IMG/VR virus record: IMGVR_UViG_3300005758_000043
From: a virus
Taxonomy: Duplodnaviria > Heunggongvirae > Uroviricota > Caudoviricetes
Reading direction: 5' to 3' (one strand)
Length of the DNA stretch: 64,000 nt
Shown here: positions 15,349 to 39,362 of the stretch, piece by piece
Layout of the letters: each line of letters starts with the position of its first letter
Position numbering within the stretch: the stretch's first letter is position 1
Translations under genes and position numbers: made by a program
Notes under the pieces: generated by a model
What the model saw: the letters and a program-made list of their open reading frames with translations, nothing else
Databases searched by the model: none
What the model was told of the DNA's origin: nothing

Positions 15349-15870
15349 TTATTTATCAGATGAATTTTTTTCAAGCAGAAATCTCTGAACATCTTTTTCA
15401 AAAGAATCGTCTGGAAAATTAACTCCATAATAATCTCTGATATGAAAGTAACGATCTTCGGTGATGCCAATCATGTCAATCTTCTTTGGATTGTCTCGGT
15501 AAGGAAGATTATCAATCAGAACATTTTTGATATTTGCCGTCTTATGAGGCACGACGCCAGTTCCAGCATAAGCAAGCGAATATGTATGATTGCGAATATC
15601 TTCGAGAGCAATGATATGATCATGTTCAAAACCCCAGTCAGCAAGACGATTTACTTCTCTTGCATAATCAGTGGTTGCAGTCGTTAGAATATAAACATTG
15701 TCTGCGCCAACAAGCTCACGGCTGAAATCAATCAATGCTTTAGCGCATGGCCGAATCATTGTGTAGTAATTAGCATCATCCAAAGCAAGGACAACATGTT
15801 CCTGATTTGGTGCACTCATTACGGTATGAATGAGCGTTTCATCAATATCCCAAAAAATTTTATTAATCAT
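15349..15870 (-). CDS. HAD-superfamily phosphatase
   Basis: N-terminal DxDxT motif (FWDIDETL). Confidence 0.5.
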   Translation of the reverse strand: MINKIFWDIDETLIHTVMSAPNQEHVVLALDDANYYTMIRPCAKALIDFSRELVGADNVYILTTATTDYAREVNRLADWGFEHDHIIALEDIRNHTYSLAYAGTGVVPHKTANIKNVLIDNLPYRDNPKKIDMIGITEDRYFHIRDYYGVNFPDDSFEKDVQRFLLEKNSSDK

Positions 15871-16309
15871 TGATTAGTGAGGTTAGTGTTTCCCTGATTT
15901 CTTTTGCTCCCCAGAAGTTCGCTGAGTGAACGAATGTTTTGATGTTCACATCATCGCCTAAATTCTTGAGTTTGTCAACCAAAAATTCCGCGCAATGCTT
16001 TCCTGTTTTGATCTTCAGTTCGTCGTAATGAATCTTTCCTGTTTTGGATGTTACGTCAAAATAGTGATCCAAATGTTCTTCTGATAAGTCATGATCGAAG
16101 CTGACCACATCTGGAATTCCATTCTTTTCAATCATCGCCACAAATTGATCATAGGAACGCACAATTTCCCAATTGTCGTTTGGAATACCCGAAATTTGTT
16201 CAAGCGATTGACCAGAAATAATTTGTTTCTGTTCGTTGCGTCTTGGATAAATCCAAGCGTCTTTTGGCATGCGAATATCATCCAAAAATAAATTGTAAGG
16301 TTGTTTCAT
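15863..16309 (-). CDS. hypothetical protein
   Basis: 148-aa ORF. Confidence 0.35.
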   Translation of the reverse strand: MKQPYNLFLDDIRMPKDAWIYPRRNEQKQIISGQSLEQISGIPNDNWEIVRSYDQFVAMIEKNGIPDVVSFDHDLSEEHLDHYFDVTSKTGKIHYDELKIKTGKHCAEFLVDKLKNLGDDVNIKTFVHSANFWGAKEIRETLTSLIND

Positions 16310-16337
16310 TGTTTTAATTTTAATTAAAAAATTTTAC

Positions 16338-16375
16338 GACTCTCCCAAGAAATTTCAGGAGAGCCGCAAATTGTA
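16338..16375 (-). terminator. terminator-like hairpin downstream of rtcB
   Basis: Stem CTCTCC/GGAGAG followed by a T-rich tract on the minus strand. Confidence 0.4.
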
Positions 16376-16382
16376 TTGATTT

Positions 16383-17591
16383 TTAATCCTTGTAAGGATC
16401 AAAGGTTTCTGAGCCAGCCATTGCTACTCCAATAGGAGTGAGAACATGGAGAATGCGAATAGTATCATGTTGAGCAAGCAAGACATCCCCCAGACGCTTG
16501 TAGCAATGTGGAGATTCGTCAACACCTGCTCCTCGCAAGACAACTCCTGCGCGATTAACCCATTCATCCATCATTGCCTGAGAAACCTTTCCTTCAGAAA
16601 TGCGAGTCTTTACTCCACCTTTCCACTTGACCTTGCCAGCCGCTTCATTTCGCGACATAACGCGACCTGCACCGTGAACGGTCGAATATAGAGAAGCAGA
16701 AGAAAATTCAGACTCAGCACCTTCAAGAATAACTGAGTTTTCTCCCATAGTGCCGCCGACAAAACCACGCTGATTAGGAAAAGCTGGAGTCGCTCCCTTG
16801 CGAACAACCCACAAATCTTCGCCACCATGATTTTCATACCAAGCAAAGTTATGATGATTATGAACTTCGTCCACAATATCCCCGCCAATGATGCGAGCAA
16901 CTTCGCGGCATACCCAATCGCGACCAGCGTAAGCATACTGACCAGCAAGATTCATTGCGGCGATGTATTCGCGGCCCAAATCAGAATTGGTGTCAAGCAC
17001 AACAGGATCTACAAACATTCCATCAGTTCCGCCACCAGCCTTGATATAATGCGATGCAATCTTATGACCAAGACCTCGCGATCCAAAGTGGACACCCACC
17101 CACACGCGACCCAATTCGTCATAAAAAATATCAACATAATGATTTCCAGAACCAACAGTCCCAAGCTGATTGCGAGCCATATCCTTTAGAGGCTTGATAG
17201 AATCAAGATCATTCCAAAGAGGATCGGAAAAAAGAGCATGATCTGAAACATCTTCTTGACCAGCGATATGTCGAGACTTTGAAACGCGACCAATACCGAA
17301 CGAAATATTTCTAGCTACTTCGTCCATGATGCGCTCCATATCCGATGCAATTTGTCCGTAATGAACATTCAATCGCACGGCCTTATTGCCACATCCAATA
17401 TCGAATCCAACTCCAGAAGGAGAAATACCGTTTCGATAAGCGACAACGCCACCGACAGGCACGCTATAGCCCAAGTGATGATCTGCCATTAGAGCAGCGC
17501 GAGCCGCACCCTTAGCAAGAACATTCTTCATTTGGTCAACGGCGTTCTGAATTGGTTCGCCAAAGATGGAGATGTTTTCAATCGTTTGCAT
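16383..17591 (-). CDS. rtcB: RNA 3'-phosphate/5'-OH ligase RtcB
   Basis: Motifs ADHHLGYSVPVGGV, GFDIGCGN and HGAGR. The ORF-track start (17615) lies inside the TTGACA/TATTGT promoter. The true start is the MQTIEN Met at ~17591, giving a leaderless mRNA. Confidence 0.8.
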   Translation of the reverse strand: MQTIENISIFGEPIQNAVDQMKNVLAKGAARAALMADHHLGYSVPVGGVVAYRNGISPSGVGFDIGCGNKAVRLNVHYGQIASDMERIMDEVARNISFGIGRVSKSRHIAGQEDVSDHALFSDPLWNDLDSIKPLKDMARNQLGTVGSGNHYVDIFYDELGRVWVGVHFGSRGLGHKIASHYIKAGGGTDGMFVDPVVLDTNSDLGREYIAAMNLAGQYAYAGRDWVCREVARIIGGDIVDEVHNHHNFAWYENHGGEDLWVVRKGATPAFPNQRGFVGGTMGENSVILEGAESEFSSASLYSTVHGAGRVMSRNEAAGKVKWKGGVKTRISEGKVSQAMMDEWVNRAGVVLRGAGVDESPHCYKRLGDVLLAQHDTIRILHVLTPIGVAMAGSETFDPYKD

Positions 17592-17597
17592 AAAGCG

Positions 17598-17626
17598 ACA
17601 ATACTCAAGATTCACTCAATTGTCAA
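17598..17626 (-). promoter_or_regulatory. promoter TTGACA-N17-TATTGT driving leaderless rtcB
   Basis: The -10 ends 6 nt before the ATG at 17591. Confidence 0.5.
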
Positions 17627-25793: not shown

Positions 25794-27290
25794 TTATTGA
25801 CCTTTTTCAAGAGCAATAATGTAATCAACCACAGATTCGCTCCAGCCATCCACATGTGTCCACTTTCCATAGCCTACACCATTTCTGTAAGAGGCCACAT
25901 TGATCATGTAAGCCTTATCAAAAACGGGATCAGGAACTCGGTCAGCAGATTGTTCATCTGTGATGACAATGAGGCGATCACCAGATCGAAGATTCATCTT
26001 CTTAACTGATTCACCAAGATAGGTGCCTTGGTGCTTCTGAGACTTGCTGATTGCTTCGGCAAGGGCGAAGCCCCTACGAGAAGGAACAAGCTTTGTTTCA
26101 TAAGAGAAGCTGTGGACTTCGACAGTGCTGCAAATTTCACGAAGAAGCATTGCAACACCACATGCAGCATCGAGACGAGAAATGTCGCTCTTGCCAGAAA
26201 CCTTGCTATGCATCGAAACCGAAATATCAACAAGGATAATAGTCTTGCCAGAAAGCTTTTCGTGCTTATCCAAGCTCTTCAGCATGGACTCTTCAAGTTC
26301 AGCTTCATACTTAGGCGCATTACGCGCAGCAGAAATAAAACGGAAAGGAAGAACACGATCAGTCTTCATGTTTACCAAACTTTCGCGGATCAACTTTTCA
26401 TTGACGCCAGCTTGTTCCATGTTGCGCAGATTTCGAAGAAGAGCCAAAGCTCCAAGCTTCTTCTCATTGAGAAGGCGAGTCCAAGAAGCCTTTTTATCCT
26501 TAGAAGCTGAGAGTTCAACTTCCCAAGTATCAGGAGTCTTGAGTTCATCGTTAACCAGACGCTTCCAAAGATCTTCCTGCGCCTTAGAATTTGGGCGAGC
26601 ATGAACCATGAAAAGAACATCCTTCAACTTAACGGCACCATCTCGATTGTATTTTGCCAAGGCATATTCATCGAACTTAGTGAAAGCAGTCGCAAGACCC
26701 TTCTTGACTTGATTAGCAATTGGACACTTTCCTTCCTTCCAATAAATAGAAAGAAATTCAGAAAGCTCATCTGCACGCTGGATGATGCGAGACAGAGTAT
26801 CAGCAACATATTCACGCTGCTTTGGATTTTGAGCCATGAGTCGCGCAATATACAAAGGAGTATGACGGAGCTTCATGTTTTCGCGAGCTTCAATAGCAAT
26901 TTCCATTGCTTCTTTGCCACTAACTTTTGCTACGAGATCCTTGATACGATCTGCGATAGTCACGCCAGATTCATAAAAAGAATTTTCCCACAACATACAA
27001 GCCATAACAGAACGTCGAAGTTCTTCAAGAGGCTTGATTCTTTTCGCTACCGCGCCTTCGTGAGTGCGAATTGGCTTCGGAGTATTTTTTACGTTGGTCT
27101 TCATGTCGTTAATTGTATCTATATTTTCCTCGTAGTCAAGGATTTCTTCGGAGATTTTTTGTTTAGCGGTTTTTCGCGCTGTTGTTTTTGATTTTTTCCA
27201 ATTATAAGTATTGCAAGTTTCACAACCGCAATGGTCGCTGGCATGAATGCCCAAGCGAGATTTTGAAAGTTTTTGTCCGTAAGGTTTCAT
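25794..27290 (-). CDS. rsr: Ro60 / TROVE-domain ribonucleoprotein with C-terminal vWA domain (Rsr orthologue)
   Basis: AKYNRDGAVKLKDVLFMVHARP aligns with the Ro60 TKYKQRNGWSHKDLLRLSH region. C-terminal vWA MIDAS motif ILVDISVSM. The ORF-track start (27344) overlaps tRNA-mimic element Y1, so the likely start is MKPYGQ at ~27290. Confidence 0.75.
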   Translation of the reverse strand: MKPYGQKLSKSRLGIHASDHCGCETCNTYNWKKSKTTARKTAKQKISEEILDYEENIDTINDMKTNVKNTPKPIRTHEGAVAKRIKPLEELRRSVMACMLWENSFYESGVTIADRIKDLVAKVSGKEAMEIAIEARENMKLRHTPLYIARLMAQNPKQREYVADTLSRIIQRADELSEFLSIYWKEGKCPIANQVKKGLATAFTKFDEYALAKYNRDGAVKLKDVLFMVHARPNSKAQEDLWKRLVNDELKTPDTWEVELSASKDKKASWTRLLNEKKLGALALLRNLRNMEQAGVNEKLIRESLVNMKTDRVLPFRFISAARNAPKYEAELEESMLKSLDKHEKLSGKTIILVDISVSMHSKVSGKSDISRLDAACGVAMLLREICSTVEVHSFSYETKLVPSRRGFALAEAISKSQKHQGTYLGESVKKMNLRSGDRLIVITDEQSADRVPDPVFDKAYMINVASYRNGVGYGKWTHVDGWSESVVDYIIALEKGQ

Positions 27291-27337
27291 AGAAAAAATA
27301 GGGAAATAATTAATTACAGGCTTTTTGAACAGGAGTG

Positions 27338-27420
27338 CTACCATTACACCATACTCGGAATCGAACCGAACCGCCCGTGGGATTATGAAGTAACTGCAAT
27401 TTGCGCCACCTAAAGAGAAG
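27338..27420 (-). ncRNA. tRNA-mimic module Y1 (candidate Y-RNA-like ncRNA) immediately upstream of the Ro60 start
   Basis: Read on the minus strand: conserved leader GTGGCGCAAATTGCAGTTACTTCATAATCC. Then a T-arm (TTCGG TTCGATT CCGAG). Then directly a tRNA 5'-half-like D-arm (TG GTGT AATGGTAG CAC). There is no anticodon arm, and T and D are permuted relative to a tRNA. Confidence 0.35.
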
Positions 27421-27439
27421 AATTTCAGGGAATAGGTAA

Positions 27440-27560
27440 AAACGGATAGTTTTTGATGCTACCATTACACCACAAGGCATCTACGCCCAGCTTGGATTCG
27501 AACCAAGACCTTTTATTTACCATAATAAAGAAGTAGCCGTTTAAAATCGCCACTGAAAAA
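27440..27560 (-). ncRNA. tRNA-mimic module Y2, paralogue of Y1
   Basis: Leader CAGTGGCGATTTTAAACGGCTACTTCTTTATTATGG. Then T-arm CTTGG TTCGAAT CCAAG, a small hairpin GGGCGTAGATGCC, and a D-arm-like TG GTGT AATGGTAG CA. Confidence 0.35.
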
Positions 27561-27689
27561 GTTTTTTATATCATTCCAACCTTCGATCAGGTCGCTTGCA
27601 TACTTCCAACACCTTCAACAAGGTCATAGGCCGAAGCCTCTCAAGCATACTACGAGTCTTTTCTGCACCCTCATTGCGAAAGCTGGAAT

Positions 27690-27800
27690 GATACAAAAAG
27701 TTTGAGGCAACACAGTTGAAACGGTGGTTTTTCCGAGTAATGAAGTAACCGTTTCATTCAGCACTCAAATCTGTATCTATTATGCCGATATTCTGGCGAA
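27690..27800 (-). ncRNA. third paralogous unit, Y3 (shares the leader motif)
   Basis: Minus-strand GAGTGCTGAATGAAACGGTTACTTCATTACTCGG aligns with the Y1/Y2 leaders. A C(UUCG)G tetraloop hairpin (GGCTTCGGCC) and an ATCGAAGG motif lie downstream. Confidence 0.25.
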
Positions 27801-27894
27801 AGTCAATCGGTTTTTGAGAAAATTTGGTGGGTTCCAGACTCGCAGCGACCGTTTCAGGCTACGATCCTGAATGCATGTCGATCTTTCCCCCATT

Positions 27895-28045
27895 AATTGG
27901 TGGACATGTTGGGAATCGAACCCAAAGAGTGCCGCCGCACTACTACCATTCAGCCCGTCGAGTGGACCGAGAGGGAATCGAACCCTCACCTACACCATGT
28001 CATGCCCAAAATTGGTGGACCGCAGGAGAGTCGAACTCCTGTCCT
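27895..28045 (-). pseudogene. Three tandem pseudo-tRNA 3'-end units (T-arm + acceptor 3' strand + A-CCA) lacking 5' halves
   Basis: Minus strand: TTGGG TTCGATT CCCAA CATGTCC A CCA; GAGGG TTCGATT CCCTC TCGGTCC A; AGGAG TTCGACT CTCCT GCGGTCC A CCA. No complementary 5' acceptor strands within 120 nt, even allowing G.U pairs. Confidence 0.4.
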
Positions 28046-28561
28046 CAACAAATTTGTATTAACCTTCAAACATGCTTATATTTGATTCGTCAAAGTGAAT
28101 CACTCTCAGGGACATTCGGTTCTTGGTAGTTCCTACTTTGTCCTCCACCAGTTAATTTTTAAACTGAAAAAATTAACAAACCCAGTTTTTGCTCGATTTG
28201 ATACTCAGAAAAGAGCGAGCGTTCTTCTGAGCGTGATACTTACGCAGCAGCGAGAGAAGCCTTGCGGGCAACTTTTGCAGACTTACGGAAGGTGACAACT
28301 TTGTTTTTGCCGTTTGTTTTTTTGAGCGGATTTTTAAGGAGCCATCCGATCAACTCCTACATGCTAGTTAATATTTCACTTATCAAGTCGAAACCAGAAG
28401 CGGCCCATTAATCTTTTAAAATAAGCATTTCATCATTACCGAGATCTACGACACCATCTGCTGATGCTTTTGCTTCTTTGAATTGATTGTAGCAAATTGC
28501 TACTGCTTGCTTATTATCTTTGTATTCTGAAGAAATCTGCGATACGCAGCGACTTACAAAT

Positions 28562-35699: not shown

Positions 35700-36099
35700 T
35701 TTAAAAACACTTCCCGAATTACGCTTGCATCAGAGGCGCGGGAAGTCAATCGAAAATTGTTATCTAAGCCCTGAGATTACAGGCTAGGGCGACCAGTCTT
35801 TCATAAGATTATTAAGCAGCATTCCAAGCCACTATTTCCTTACTTATCCACTACCTCTCGATAGTATCCAGTCATCGACGCCATTTTATGAATCGCTGGC
35901 ATTTGCGATTTACCGTTTACTCTACTCGATCATTTCTAGAACCTCGGAGGATGGCCGTCCTGCAAGATTTCCTTCTCTGATCAAACGCCTTGTGCTTTGC
36001 GAGCCAAGGTTCGCACAGAATTGCTTTCGCTTCTGTCTTAGTCGATTTTCGAGCGTTCGGGGTTACGTCTTTTGCTTTTAATATTTATACGTTGTTTAA

Positions 36100-36200
36100 T
36101 ATGCAACTGCCTTTACCCATTTGGCTACTCCCCCCGTCAAAGCATAAGCTGGATGCTCTGATGGCGGGGGAGGCTGGACTCGAACCAGCAAAATAAATGG
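36100..36200 (-). ncRNA. Permuted tRNA-like element with closed acceptor stem (Y-RNA-type tRNA mimic?)
   Basis: Minus-strand order: T-arm GCTGG TTCGAGT CCAGC, then acceptor 3' strand CTCCCCC-G-CCA. A 26-nt linker with hairpin GCAT-CCAGCTT-ATGC follows. Then the perfectly complementary acceptor 5' strand GGGGGAG, TA, and D-arm GCC-AAATGGGTAAA-GGC. It ends with AGTTGC ATATTAA ACAAC. Confidence 0.35.
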
Positions 36201-36230
36201 AAACCTACGTCAATGTGCGCAACCACGCTG

Positions 36231-36250
36231 CTCTCAAAATCTCTCAAAAT
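36231..36250. repeat. 10-bp tandem direct repeat CTCTCAAAAT x2
   Basis: Exact duplication in the 1-kb non-coding region. Confidence 0.5.
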
Positions 36251-36727
36251 CAAGAATACAACACATCAACTAGAATCAGTATCGCTACTTTTTCATCGCA
36301 GTCAAGACTACCCTCGATTTGACTCTCAGGCAACCTCTCAGCATGCCATTCGCCTTTGTATCTCTACTCTGACTTATGACTACCCTTTGAGATTCATGCT
36401 TTCAGACCCATTTGAGTTTTCCTTTCAGAACCAGCTACATCGTTGACCTCACTGTTTTACTCTCTTCGACCCGTAGGCTTCAACAACATAAGTTTTAATG
36501 GCTTATATTGTCGTATCTCTCGGCTTGCTTGGTGGGCTAACTTAGCGAACTAAATTAGTGGGCGGTGTAGGAACCTTATCCCTTTCCCAGAATCGCTTCT
36601 GGATTATCCTGTAATGCCCCCAAGCGGGCAAATTTTTTATGATATTAAAGAACTTTTTACGAAGGAAACTCTTTGTTTTCCCAAGATCGCTTTGAAGAAC
36701 TCTTAGTTCGTCGCGGCGATGTGATTG

Positions 36728-36981: not shown

Positions 36982-37052
36982 ATTATTATAGGGAATGTTC
37001 TGATTTGGTATTTTTCGCGCTCTAACCACTGAGCTACGCTCTCACCTATGGG

Positions 37053-37130
37053 CAGTTGCGGCAGGATTCGAACCTGCGCCTCGTCTTTAGAATAGAAGTA
37101 ACCAACTCATGTCACCACTATAAATCTTTT
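37053..37130 (-). pseudogene. tRNA-Arg (UCU)-like fragment without a matching 5' acceptor/D-arm
   Basis: T-arm GCAGG TTCGAAT CCTGC, 3' end CGCAACT-G-CC, anticodon stem CTTCT/AGACG with loop AUUCUAA. Immediately downstream on the minus strand is an orphan tRNA 5' half (GAGCG TA GCTC AGTGGTTA GAGC). Confidence 0.3.
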
Positions 37131-39268: not shown

Positions 39269-39362
39269 AATTGAAAATCATTTGAGGCAACAAGCGACAA
39301 GGGGTTTATTGGTTTCAAGTAATAGTTGAAGAAGTATCCCTTATCTAACAGCACTCAAAAAT

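What the first reader, a model, noticed from the sequence alone, without database searches (positions are those of the whole stretch)
25794..27830. Phage-encoded Ro60 (TROVE+vWA) gene preceded by three paralogous tRNA-mimic ncRNA modules: candidate Y RNAs
Ro60 orthologues act together with Y RNAs. Bacterial Y RNAs such as YrlA carry a tRNA-like domain in which a T-arm, a closed acceptor-like stem and a D-arm follow one another, and the Ro60-binding stem replaces the anticodon arm.

Immediately upstream of rsr on the same strand are three related units (Y1 27338-27420, Y2 27440-27560, Y3 ~27690-27800). They share a leader motif (GUGGCG...ACGG.UACUUC.U.A). In Y1 and Y2 a canonical T-arm is followed by a tRNA 5'-half-like D-arm, with no anticodon arm. 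A standard tRNA gene cannot give this order; a Y-RNA-type tRNA mimic can.

With RtcB 8 kb away, this recalls the Salmonella rsr-yrlBA-rtcBA arrangement, here inside a phage tRNA array.
Basis: partly seen in the sequence, partly recalled or inferred. Interest (0 to 1): 0.8.

Follow-up and report, generated by a model that had tools for sequence, protein, structure and literature searches.

The report
Phage Ro60 gene with Y RNAs
A phage carries a Ro60 RNA-binding protein gene preceded by three small non-coding Y RNA genes, two of them tRNA mimics, plus two more in its tRNA gene cluster; this pairing is already known in bacteria and some phages, so it is a correct but fairly ordinary find with a few unusual details.

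Summary
On the minus strand, between a tmRNA gene and a Ro60 gene (TROVE, E 1e-17), lie three modules: Y3 27769-27699, Y2 27558-27421 and Y1 27414-27295.

Fifteen distinct related viral loci all carry one or more similar modules just upstream of their Ro60 gene, on the same strand. These modules share a two-helix bulged stem (GG-YG-A/U-AG ... YUACUUC ... CGYUUGUUCC) with strong compensatory changes.

Covariance models built only from those loci find the window modules at E 1e-12 to 1e-16. They also find two more Y genes inside the tRNA array, at 37123-36984 and 39359-39279. The same models find modules upstream of Ro60 in Caulobacter phage CcrColossus, a published Y RNA host. There Rfam YrlA also scores, below its cut-off.

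Y2 is a YrlA-type permuted tRNA mimic (T-arm, closed acceptor hairpin, D-arm). Y1 is the same without the acceptor hairpin. Y3 is a plain hairpin of the YrlB type, not a tRNA mimic. Rfam YrlA itself misses Y1 to Y3.

RtcB is confirmed 8.2 kb downstream. Phage Ro60 and Y RNA pairs are already described (Chen 2014; Thermus phage phiLo 2025). This is a new member of a known kind.

The parts
27779..27806 (-). Sigma-70-like promoter (TTGACT-16-CATAAT) about 10 nt upstream of Y3
   Evidence: 10/12 match. The count of such sites in the region is not above shuffles. However, a TTGACA-type box sits upstream of the first Y module in L001, L002, L004, L006, L012 and L013.
27699..27769 (-). Y3: a simple Y RNA of the YrlB type. 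It has a lower stem UGAG/CUCA, a bulged U, the pair GC/GC, a GCUGAAUG motif and an upper stem GAAACGG/CCGUUUC. The apical loop starts with UUACUUC.
   Evidence: R1 scores 55.1 bits (E 1e-12) and R2 scores 36.7 bits. The minimum-energy fold reproduces the model structure (z -2.2).
27563..27699 (-). Very stable long hairpin between Y3 and Y2. Its closing helix is about 23 bp. It is not a Y RNA. It may be an RNase III-type processing site.
   Evidence: Folding energy is -53.6 kcal/mol, z -5.5, and 0 of 200 shuffles fold as well. It is unique in the window and the loci. There is no Rfam hit.
27421..27558 (-). Y2: a YrlA-type Y RNA. Reading 5' to 3': Ro60-binding stem, CUACUUC, V hairpin, T-arm CUUGG-UUCGAAU-CCAAG, a closed acceptor-like hairpin of 6 bp with one U.U mismatch, UG, D-arm GUGU-AAUGGUA-GCAU, and the 3' strand CCGUUU..CUAUUCC-CUG.
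   Evidence: R2 scores 68.0 bits (E 1e-16). The centroid fold gives the same helices. A15:U48 can be read from the sequence.
27295..27414 (-). Y1: a YrlA-type Y RNA without the acceptor hairpin. The T-arm UUCGG-UUCGAUU-CCGAG is followed by UAUG and then the D-arm GUGU-AAUGGUA-GCAC. The upper stem is AAUUGCAG/CUGUAAUU.
   Evidence: R2 scores 59.6 bits (E 2e-14), with the 16 acceptor-hairpin model positions deleted. R1 scores 33.6 bits. Single-sequence folding does not recover the stem.
27112..27139 (-). Second sigma-70-like promoter (TTGACT-16-TACAAT). It ends 8 nt before the conserved Ro60 start codon.
   Evidence: L001 has TTGACA-17-TATGAT in the equivalent place.
25794..27104 (-). Ro60 (rsr) gene of 436 aa, with a TROVE ring and a vWA domain. 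An in-frame 62-codon upstream extension (27290-27105) is absent from homologues.
   Evidence: The start was chosen by alignment with homologues, which begin MKTN/MRTN.
36984..37123 (-). Y4: the most canonical YrlA-like RNA of the window. Its D-arm is GCUC-AGUGGUUA-GAGC, and G15:C48 is possible. It lies between tRNA-Thr and tRNA-Ile in the tRNA array, 9.9 kb upstream of rsr.
   Evidence: R2 scores 90.5 bits (E 7e-23). Rfam YrlA scores 24.4 bits on the T-AS-D core (E 0.002).
39279..39359 (-). Y5: a second simple Y RNA, paralogous to Y3 (UGAG-U-GC ... GC-CUCA). It lies between tRNA-Glu and tRNA-Met.
   Evidence: R1 scores 44.7 bits (E 7e-10). The fold matches the model (z -3.0).
16383..17615 (-). 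RtcB RNA ligase. It is followed by a cREC_REC protein (16309-15863) and a NIF/HAD phosphatase (15870-15349).
   Evidence: Pfam RtcB at 3e-64. cREC_REC at 1e-17 and NIF at 4e-8.

Best explanation
Y1, Y2 and Y3 are genes for Y RNAs, the small non-coding partners of the phage-encoded Ro60 protein. They belong to a five-member family in this phage. Y4 and Y5 sit among the tRNA genes.

Proposed mechanism, with the status of each step:

1. A sigma-70-type promoter at about 27806 probably drives one precursor, Y3-hairpin-Y2-Y1. This precursor is cut into RNAs of roughly 70, 135 and 120 nt. This step is inferred. The spacers are 6 nt or less between Y2 and Y1. Y4 and Y5 abut tRNA genes, so tRNA-processing enzymes could define their ends.

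2. In each RNA the 5' and 3' ends pair into a bulged two-helix stem. The stem presents a GNCGAA-like motif, which is the published Ro60 docking site. The structure is shown by covariation. Binding is inferred.

3. In Y2, Y1 and Y4 the tip of the stem carries a circularly permuted tRNA core. The T-loop and D-loop can form the tRNA elbow. Y3 and Y5 carry only a loop.

4. By analogy with D. radiodurans, Salmonella and Thermus phage phiLo, the RNA would tether Ro60 to a second factor. That factor could be host PNPase or a tRNA-elbow-binding protein, which would direct handling of structured or damaged RNA during infection.

5. The genomic setting is 31 genes called by ARAGORN (30 tRNAs and a tmRNA) plus an RtcB-cREC-phosphatase cassette. 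This setting suggests a role in keeping the translation apparatus working when host nucleases attack tRNAs. This last point is inference only.
For: Ro60 identity rests.

Related loci:
- Seventeen related viral loci were found, of which 15 are distinct.
- All 15 carry Y-type modules.
- Of 39 R2 hits in 120 kb scanned on both strands, 37 are full-length modules. All 37 lie upstream of rsr on its strand, within about 1.2 kb. The other two are partial hits at tRNA junctions.

Covariation:
- In 17 simple modules, 94% of cells are paired and 12 of 14 pairs show compensatory change. The score is 0.82, against 0.25 or less when partners are slid.
- In 10 YrlA-type modules, 27 pairs are 97.7% paired and 23 are compensatory.
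- The five window paralogues are 95.7% paired, with 11 of 14 pairs compensatory.

Models built without window data detect Y3, Y2, Y1, Y4 and Y5 at E 1e-12, 1e-16, 2e-14, 7e-23 and 7e-10.

The same models find 8 modules upstream of CcrColossus Ro60, 5 in Xanthomonas phage Olaya and 1-2 in Bacillus phage G. Y RNAs are published for CcrColossus and phage G (PMC4201824; PMC12135203).

Rfam YrlA hits the same elements and my training sequences at 25-50 bits, E down to 3e-8.

The published hallmarks are the GNCGAAN0-1G motif, YUAY opening the V loop, the T-AS-D order and the Levitt 15:48 pair (PMC4201824). They can be read in the sequences.
Against: - Rfam YrlA (RF02553, cut-off 69 bits) gives no hit on Y1 to Y3 and only 24.4 bits on Y4.
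- The GNCGAA motif is degenerate in the window: GGCGAU in Y2, GGCGCAA in Y1 and GCUGAAUG in Y3.
- Y1 and Y2 have a D-stem GUGU/GCAY instead of the nearly invariant GCUC/GAGC of published YrlAs.
- Thermodynamic folding alone does not favour the model fold for Y1 (z +0.6) or Y2 (z -0.3).
- There are no expression, processing or binding data.
- E-values from the short calibration are rough.
Confidence: 0.85

Rival explanations
1. The modules are cis-acting parts of the rsr 5' leader. They would be Ro60-binding sites that autoregulate rsr translation or mRNA stability, not stable trans-acting RNAs.
For: Y1 ends 5 nt before an in-frame ATG at 27290, with no terminator-like site between the modules and rsr. 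In every related locus the modules lie directly upstream of rsr.
Against: Y4 and Y5 have the same stem but lie 9.9 and 12.2 kb from rsr, wedged between tRNA genes. A relative has one between two tRNA-Met genes. The conserved rsr start (27104) has its own promoter-like site downstream of Y1. In M. smegmatis, Y RNAs upstream of rsr are processed from a precursor and bound in trans (PMC4201824).
Confidence: 0.06
2. The units are decayed or rearranged tRNA genes, that is, debris of recombination inside a tRNA island with no function of their own.
For: They lie in a phage tRNA region. The T-arm to D-arm order also arises at every tRNA-tRNA junction, which R2 picks up weakly at 17-23 bits. The Y1/Y2 D-arm resembles the phage's own tRNA-Gln and tRNA-Gly D-arms.
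Against: ARAGORN and Rfam tRNA do not call them. The best tRNA alignment scores 14.7 bits. The non-tRNA flanking stem is conserved with compensatory changes across 15 distinct loci and 5 paralogues. The modules track the Ro60 gene.
Confidence: 0.03
3. The tRNA-elbow parts of Y1 and Y2 act independently of Ro60. They would be decoys or sponges for tRNA-binding host factors such as defence nucleases or modification and processing enzymes. The flanking stem would serve only for stability.
For: An acceptor-less T-arm/D-arm core almost identical to that of Y1 occurs on a different scaffold in six other viral contigs. That scaffold is closed by a GGAUGC/GCAUCC stem and has no Y motif. The elements lie next to tRNA genes, with no Ro60 gene in the fetched +-5 kb. 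A similar permuted module sits in the GOLLD RNA linker of this phage.
Against: Y1 and Y2 keep the full Ro60-type stem, with the same covarying helices as Y3 and Y5. They lie next to rsr. Only short stretches of the other contigs were fetched, so Ro60 may lie elsewhere on them.
Confidence: 0.06

Closest known systems
YrlA RNAs (Rfam RF02553; Salmonella, M. smegmatis, more than 250 bacteria and 22 phages; Chen et al. 2014, PMC4201824; structure in bioRxiv 10.1101/312249)
   Same: They are encoded next to rsr on the same strand. The 5'/3' stem carries a GNCGAA-type motif, and YUAY opens the V region. The T-arm, closed acceptor-like hairpin and D-arm follow in that order, as a permuted tRNA. The elbow nucleotides and the Levitt 15:48 pair are kept (Y2, Y4).
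   Different: All window modules score below the Rfam cut-off. Y1 lacks the acceptor hairpin. Y1 and Y2 use a GUGU/GCAY D-stem with a short AAUGGUA loop instead of the nearly invariant GCUC-AGUUGGUA-GAGC. The Ro60-motif strand is degenerate. Two family members lie 10-12 kb from rsr, inside the tRNA array.
YrlB / Yrn2-type simple Y RNAs (Salmonella, M. smegmatis, D. radiodurans)
   Same: Y3 and Y5 are long hairpins with the Ro60-type bulged stem and a small loop. They are encoded beside a tRNA-like Y RNA. D. radiodurans Yrn2 is co-transcribed with a tRNA, much as Y5 sits between tRNAs.
   Different: There is no sequence similarity beyond the stem motif. The apical loop carries the conserved UUACUUC ... 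AAAAA of this phage lineage.
Thermus phage phiLo Ro60 with Yrl1 and Yrl2 (PMC12135203; PDB 9KOP, 9L5Y)
   Same: It is a phage-encoded Ro60 and the best solved-structure match (E 1e-26). Y RNA-like genes lie upstream. The published model is that phage Ro60 and Y RNA capture host PNPase.
   Different: As described in that paper, the phiLo Yrls are stem-bulge-stem RNAs with a CGAA motif. The passages I read do not mention a tRNA-like domain. phiLo is not reported to combine these with a tRNA array, a tmRNA or RtcB.
Salmonella rsr-yrlBA-rtcBA RNA repair operon
   Same: The components are shared: Ro60, a simple Y RNA, a tRNA-like Y RNA and the RtcB ligase in one genome region on one strand.
   Different: It is not one operon here. 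RtcB is 8.2 kb downstream, beyond tRNA genes, lysozyme and RIIA genes. No RtcA or RtcR was seen among the ORFs scanned with Pfam. The promoters are sigma-70-like, not sigma-54-like. RtcB is paired with cREC and a HAD phosphatase instead.

Membership tests
Bacterial/phage Y RNA (Ro60 partner RNA) | Encoded close to the Ro60 gene (typically within 4 kb) on the same strand | tested here: met
   Y1 to Y3 lie 190-665 nt upstream of rsr ATG 27104, on the same strand. Y4 and Y5 are on the same strand but 9.9 and 12.2 kb away.
Bacterial/phage Y RNA (Ro60 partner RNA) | 5' and 3' ends pair into a bulged stem that is conserved in relatives | tested here: met
   Covariation in 17 and 10 related modules and in the 5 window paralogues. 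Bulged U between the two lower helices.
Bacterial/phage Y RNA (Ro60 partner RNA) | GNCGAAN0-1G motif on the 5' strand (Ro60 contact site) | tested here: inconclusive
   Related loci carry GGCGAAG, GGUGAAG or GCCGUAG. The window has GGCGAUU (Y2), GGCGCAA (Y1), GCUGAAUG (Y3), GGUGACA (Y4) and GCUGUUAG (Y5). All are recognisable but none is an exact match.
Bacterial/phage Y RNA (Ro60 partner RNA) | Bound and stabilised by Ro60 in vivo | not testable with these tools
   Needs RIP-seq or EMSA.
YrlA (RF02553) | Score at or above the Rfam gathering cut-off (69 bits) | tested here: not met
   No hit on Y1 to Y3 at E<=10. Y4 scores 24.4 bits. As a control, related and published phage loci also score only 25-50 bits.
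YrlA (RF02553) | T-arm, closed acceptor-like hairpin and D-arm in that order, with the Ro60 stem in place of the anticodon arm | tested here: met
   Met for Y2 and Y4 (alignments). Y1 has the T-arm and D-arm but no acceptor hairpin. Y3 and Y5 have none of these.
YrlA (RF02553) | tRNA elbow nucleotides (U54 U55 C56 A58, G53-C61, G18 G19, A14, U8) and the 15:48 Levitt pair | tested here: met
   Read from the sequence. The T-loops are UUCGAAU and UUCGAUU. The D-loops are AAUGGUA and AGUGGUUA. A15:U48 fits Y2 and G15:C48 fits Y4. The pair is ambiguous in Y1.
YrlA (RF02553) | Nearly invariant D-stem and T-stem sequences (GCUC/GAGC D-stem) | tested here: not met
   Y4 has GCUC/GAGC. Y1 and Y2 have GUGU/GCAC and GUGU/GCAU. 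The same variant occurs in L001 and L010 and in at least 10 further contigs.
tRNA gene or pseudogene | Cloverleaf order: acceptor 5' strand, D-arm, anticodon arm, T-arm, acceptor 3' strand | tested here: not met
   ARAGORN and Rfam tRNA do not call them. The order is permuted. The best tRNA alignment scores 14.7 bits.
Ro60 / TROVE protein | TROVE HEAT-repeat ring followed by a vWA domain with a MIDAS motif | tested here: met
   TROVE at 64.9 bits against a cut-off of 23. vWA_Ro60 at 17.9 bits, below its cut-off of 27.7. Full-length match to phiLo Ro60, 9KOP. DISVS motif in the translation. No 3D model was made.
rsr-yrlBA-rtcBA operon | Contiguous rsr, Y RNAs, rtcB and rtcA under RtcR and sigma-54 control | tested here: not met
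   RtcB is 8.2 kb away, with lysozyme, RIIA and tRNA genes between. No RtcA or RtcR was found among the ORFs scanned with Pfam; not all ORFs of the window were scanned. The promoters are sigma-70-like.

The most novel reading that the evidence does not exclude
This phage may use the permuted tRNA 'elbow' (T-arm followed by D-arm, with or without a closed acceptor hairpin) as a portable module grafted onto several unrelated RNA scaffolds.

The scaffolds seen here are:
- the Ro60-binding stems of Y1, Y2 and Y4;
- the linker of a GOLLD RNA (36189-36106);
- a double tRNA-like element behind the tmRNA (28008-27895).

The acceptor-less form of Y1 also recurs in other phages on a non-Y scaffold. If so, elbow mimicry would be a general phage device for recruiting or titrating one tRNA-binding host factor, and Ro60 would be only one of its platforms.
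Probability: 0.15. Interest if true: 0.6.

Novelty: new member of a known kind. Interest (0 to 1): 0.35.

Why it matters
Ro60 and Y RNA particles are well studied in animals and in a few bacteria. What the tRNA-like domain of bacterial Y RNAs binds is still unknown.

This phage lineage offers natural variants side by side in one genome:
- canonical YrlA-like (Y4);
- altered D-stem (Y2);
- acceptor-less (Y1);
- domain-less (Y3, Y5).

These could serve as ready-made probes for that unknown partner.

It also shows that current annotation misses such genes. Rfam's YrlA model finds none of the three. The five GenBank phage records inspected, out of 91 with a Ro60 homologue, annotate no Y RNA, although the new models find 1-8 modules in four of the five (none in Ralstonia phage RsoM2USA).

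Biologically it adds Ro60 and Y RNA to the tRNA, tmRNA and RtcB toolkit of a tailed phage.

Tried and rejected
- **Rfam at gathering thresholds.** The window gave only tRNAs and the tmRNA. Six related loci gave only tRNAs.
- **Rfam at E<=10.** Neither 27200-28450 nor 27280-27580 gave a YrlA or Y_RNA hit.
- **DNA similarity to GenBank phages.** Only tRNA-sized matches appeared, so there is no close relative.
- **Exact-protein look-ups of Ro60.** Three alternative starts were tried and none is on record, so the source sample is unknown.
- **Single-sequence folding.** It was uninformative for Y1, Y2 and Y4, with z between -0.7 and +0.6, as is usual for tRNA-like RNAs.
- **Further Y copies.** R1 with filters off found nothing beyond the five.
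- **Homologues of the double T-arm element.** One pattern found nothing. A looser one found only the contig already known as L001.
- **The 141-nt hairpin.** No copy was found anywhere else.
- **Decayed tRNA genes.** I considered and rejected this reading (see the rival explanations).
- **ATG 27344 or 27290 as the Ro60 start.** I rejected both, because homologues start at MKTN, which is ATG 27104.
Full report
**Setting**

The window is part of a tailed phage genome. It encodes a J-like central tail fibre, minor tail proteins, RIIA and a lysozyme. ARAGORN genes on the minus strand, 30 tRNAs and a tmRNA. The tmRNA (28406-28013) scores 113 bits in Rfam. No close relative exists among 50,697 GenBank phage records.

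**The protein**

The ORF ending at 25794 matches several Ro60 references.
- Pfam TROVE: E 1e-17, 64.9 bits against a cut-off of 23.
- Ro60 vWA domain: 17.9 bits, below its cut-off.
- PHROG 850 'RNA-binding protein': 5e-48.
- Solved Ro60 of Thermus phage phiLo: E 1e-26 over nearly its whole length.

A DISVS MIDAS-like motif is visible in the translation. Homologues in 17 IMG/VR loci (47-82% identity) and in GenBank phages start at MKTN or MRTN. This puts the start at ATG 27104. The mechanical ORF start at 27344 lies inside Y1. A 62-codon in-frame extension back to ATG 27290 has no counterpart in relatives.

**The three units**

Reading the minus strand, a T-loop (GGTTCGAWTCC) is followed by a D-loop (GTGTAATGGTAGCA) at 27366/27346 and at 27503/27467. 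No tRNA gene has this order. ARAGORN and Rfam tRNA do not call these units.

**Comparative evidence**

Upstream of rsr, almost every related locus shows one to five modules built the same way. The plan, reading 5' to 3', is:
- N4, a bulged U, then GG-YG-(A/U)AG;
- a 7-8 nt stem strand;
- (G/C)UUACUUC;
- a variable insert;
- the complementary stem strand;
- CGYUUGUUCC;
- N4', complementary to N4.

I aligned 17 short modules (A1) and counted pairs for the two helices. 94.1% of cells are paired, and 12 of 14 pairs show changes on both sides. The covariation score is 0.82. Column shuffles average 0.20, and versions with partners slid by one to three columns score 0.25 or less. The GG/CC pair next to the bulge switches to GC/GC, GU/AC, AG/CU and AC/GU in different loci.

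Ten long modules with a tRNA-like insert (A3) gave 27 pairs. These cover the two stem helices, the T-stem, the outer acceptor-like stem and the D-stem. They are 97.7% paired, and 23 pairs are compensatory.

**Independent detection in the window**

I built two covariance models from these alignments, with no window sequence in either. R1 models the short modules. R2 models the long ones. The best score for each window module was:

| Module | Coordinates | Model | Bits | E-value |
|---|---|---|---|---|
| Y3 | 27769-27699 | R1 | 55.1 | 1e-12 |
| Y2 | 27558-27421 | R2 | 68.0 | 1e-16 |
| Y1 | 27414-27295 | R2 | 59.6 | 2e-14 |
| Y4 | 37123-36984 | R2 | 90.5 | 7e-23 |
| Y5 | 39359-39279 | R1 | 44.7 | 7e-10 |

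R1 also hit Y1 at 33.6 bits, spanning a 64-nt insert. R2 aligned Y1 with the 16 acceptor-hairpin positions deleted, and also hit Y3 at 36.7 bits. Y4 and Y5 lie outside the finding.

Weaker partial R2 hits (23 bits or less) fall mainly on junctions between adjacent tRNA genes, which naturally show the T-arm to D-arm order. Running R1 with filters off added nothing.

The five window paralogues keep both stem helices with different sequences. They are 95.7% paired, and 11 of 14 pairs are compensatory.

**Specificity**

In 120 kb from the 15 distinct related loci, searched on both strands, R2 gave 39 hits. 37 are full-length modules, and all 37 lie upstream of rsr on its strand, within about 1.2 kb. 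The other two are partial tRNA-junction hits.

**Link to published Y RNAs**

Chen et al. 2014 (PMC4201824) define YrlA by these features:
- a position near rsr on the same strand;
- a 5' GNCGAAN0-1G motif;
- YUAY opening the V loop;
- T, AS (closed acceptor-like) and D stem-loops;
- a covarying 15:48 pair.

They reported such RNAs in 254 bacteria and 22 phages. According to PMC12135203, these include mycobacteriophages, CcrColossus and Bacillus phage G.

My models behave consistently on those phages. R2 and R1 find 8 modules in the 760-nt gap upstream of CcrColossus gp139. They find 5 upstream of the Xanthomonas phage Olaya homologue, 1-2 in phage G, and one downstream of the gene in a crAss-like phage.

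Rfam does contain YrlA (RF02553, cut-off 69 bits). Run at E-value thresholds, it hits those same elements and three of my training sequences at 25-50 bits, with E down to 3e-8. So the family I modelled is the YrlA family, seen through a model that is too narrow for these phages.

In the window, RF02553 reaches only 24.4 bits on the T-AS-D core of Y4. It reaches nothing on Y1 to Y3. The control shows that this failure is uninformative.

**Anatomy**

- **Y3 and Y5** are plain hairpins. Their minimum-energy folds reproduce the model, with z -2.2 and -3.0.
- **Y2** has a V hairpin, the T-arm CUUGG-UUCGAAU-CCAAG, a 6-bp acceptor-like hairpin with one U.U mismatch, UG, and the D-arm GUGU-AAUGGUA-GCAU. 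A15:U48 is possible.
- **Y4** has the canonical D-arm GCUC-AGUGGUUA-GAGC, and G15:C48 is possible.
- **Y1** goes from the T-arm through UAUG straight into the D-arm. It has no acceptor hairpin.

The GUGU/GCAY D-stem of Y1 and Y2 departs from the 'nearly invariant' YrlA D-stem stressed in both Wolin-lab papers. It recurs in L001 and L010 and in at least ten further viral contigs that give full-length R2 hits. It is therefore a subclass, not decay.

**Expression signals**

A TTGACT-16-CATAAT site lies about 10 nt upstream of Y3. A TTGACT-16-TACAAT site ends 8 nt before ATG 27104. The number of such sites is not above shuffles. The position of the first is nonetheless mirrored in several relatives.

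A 137-nt hairpin lies between Y3 and Y2. Its folding energy is -53.6 kcal/mol, with z -5.5. It is unique to this genome. A processing site is my guess only.

Y4 and Y5 lie within 3-14 nt of flanking tRNA genes. A relative has a YrlA-like gene exactly filling the gap between two tRNA-Met genes. tRNA-processing enzymes could therefore define their ends, as in the D. radiodurans Yrn2-tRNA-Yrn1 precursor.

**Mechanism**

The conserved, covarying architecture and its association with rsr are shown. Ro60 binding to the stem is inferred. Tethering of a second factor through the elbow or loop is also inferred. Host PNPase is the documented partner in D. radiodurans, in Salmonella and for phage phiLo Ro60.

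RtcB lies 8.2 kb downstream. It is followed by a cyclic-phosphate-processing receiver (cREC) protein and a HAD phosphatase. This fits the view, published for jumbo phages, that TROVE proteins accompany RNA repair genes (PMC7824862). It is not the Salmonella operon.

**Verdict**

The finding is correct and its interpretation is essentially right. The kind of system is already known in phages. The unusual points are these:
- five Y genes in one phage;
- two of them dispersed in the tRNA array;
- an acceptor-less tRNA-elbow variant;
- a variant D-stem subclass;
- invisibility to Rfam and to GenBank annotation.

Noticed in passing
window 35768-36271 (-), with a promoter-like TTGACA..CATAAT near 36755-36727: A GOLLD RNA scores 138.2 bits in Rfam RF02032 (E 3e-38). 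This is just under the 150-bit cut-off, so the default scan missed it. It lies in an ORF-poor 1-kb stretch of the tRNA array.
   Followed up: partly
window 36080-36200 (-), inside the GOLLD linker: A permuted tRNA-like module. Its parts, in order, are: T-arm, acceptor 3' strand CUCCCCC followed by GCCA, a 26-nt hairpin loop, acceptor 5' strand GGGGGAG, a D-arm and an anticodon-arm-like hairpin. An AUUUAU/AUAAAU stem closes it. The T to acceptor to D order is the same as in YrlA (Rfam YrlA 21.7 bits, R2 21.7 bits; fold z -2.2). GOLLD linkers are known to hold tRNAs. The papers I read do not mention a permuted one.
   Followed up: partly
window 27895-28008 (-), directly after the tmRNA; also L001 2621-2730: An element with two T-arms. 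It has an outer stem GGGCAUG/CAUGUCC-ACCA and an inner hairpin UCGGUCC-A-CUCGAC-GGGCUGA. Both stems have G1-C72, G2-C71, G3.U70 and A73, the alanine and tmRNA acceptor identity. The phage tmRNA acceptor stem is GGGCCGC/GCGGUCC-ACCA. A D-loop-like AUGGUGUAG or AAUGGUAGU precedes each T-arm. The element is 86% conserved in the one close relative, with some compensatory changes, and was found nowhere else.
   Followed up: partly
window 27815-27894 (-): An extra 80 nt that the relative L001 lacks. It contains the hairpin UUCAGG-AUCGUAG-CCUGAA, which has anticodon-arm dimensions, and ends in CCCACCA. It is not called as a tRNA and its folding is not above shuffles (z -0.6).
   Followed up: no
window 27563-27699 (-): An exceptionally stable hairpin between Y3 and Y2 (-53.6 kcal/mol, z -5.5). 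It has an approximately 23-bp closing helix and UUCG and GUUG loops. It is unique in the window and all loci, and has no Rfam hit.
   Followed up: partly
window 27105-27290 (-): 62 codons run in frame with Ro60 with no stop. The peptide is MKPYGQ...HCGCETC...TIND. No homologue has this extension. A promoter-like site lies inside it. It may be a fused small ORF, an N-terminal extension or non-coding sequence.
   Followed up: no
L048 3437-3620 (+), L051, L069, L076, L084, L147 (IMG/VR contigs): A recurrent small RNA-like element beside tRNA genes. A GGAUGC/GCAUCC stem closes it, with compensatory variants. It has a 5' CAGCAA..UUUAACUUUAAGCCAAAC segment. Its acceptor-less core, CCGGUUCGAUUCCGG-cuugug-GUGUAAUGGUAGCAC, is nearly the same as that of Y1. 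It has no Y-RNA motif, and no Ro60 gene lies in the fetched flanks.
   Followed up: partly
L018 1720-2915 (Caulobacter phage CcrColossus), L020 1308-1921 (Xanthomonas phage Olaya), L022 729-886 (Bacillus phage G), L021 3452-3608 (crAss-like cr106_1): These GenBank phage records have Ro60 homologues but annotate no Y RNAs. The models find 8, 5, 1-2 and 1 modules respectively. In CcrColossus, a feature annotated as tRNA-Gln (2131-2198) falls inside one YrlA-like module (2127-2293).
   Followed up: partly
window 15349-17615 (-): RtcB is followed by a cREC_REC (cyclic-phosphate processing receiver) protein and a NIF/HAD-type phosphatase. Together they form a compact RNA-repair cassette without RtcA.
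   Followed up: partly
L006/L009 3886-3980, L017 3669-3772: These Y-type stems carry a different conserved insert, ACGGAAGCGGG-hairpin-GCAGCGCACGA, instead of a tRNA-like domain. It may be another effector module of phage Y RNAs.
   Followed up: no
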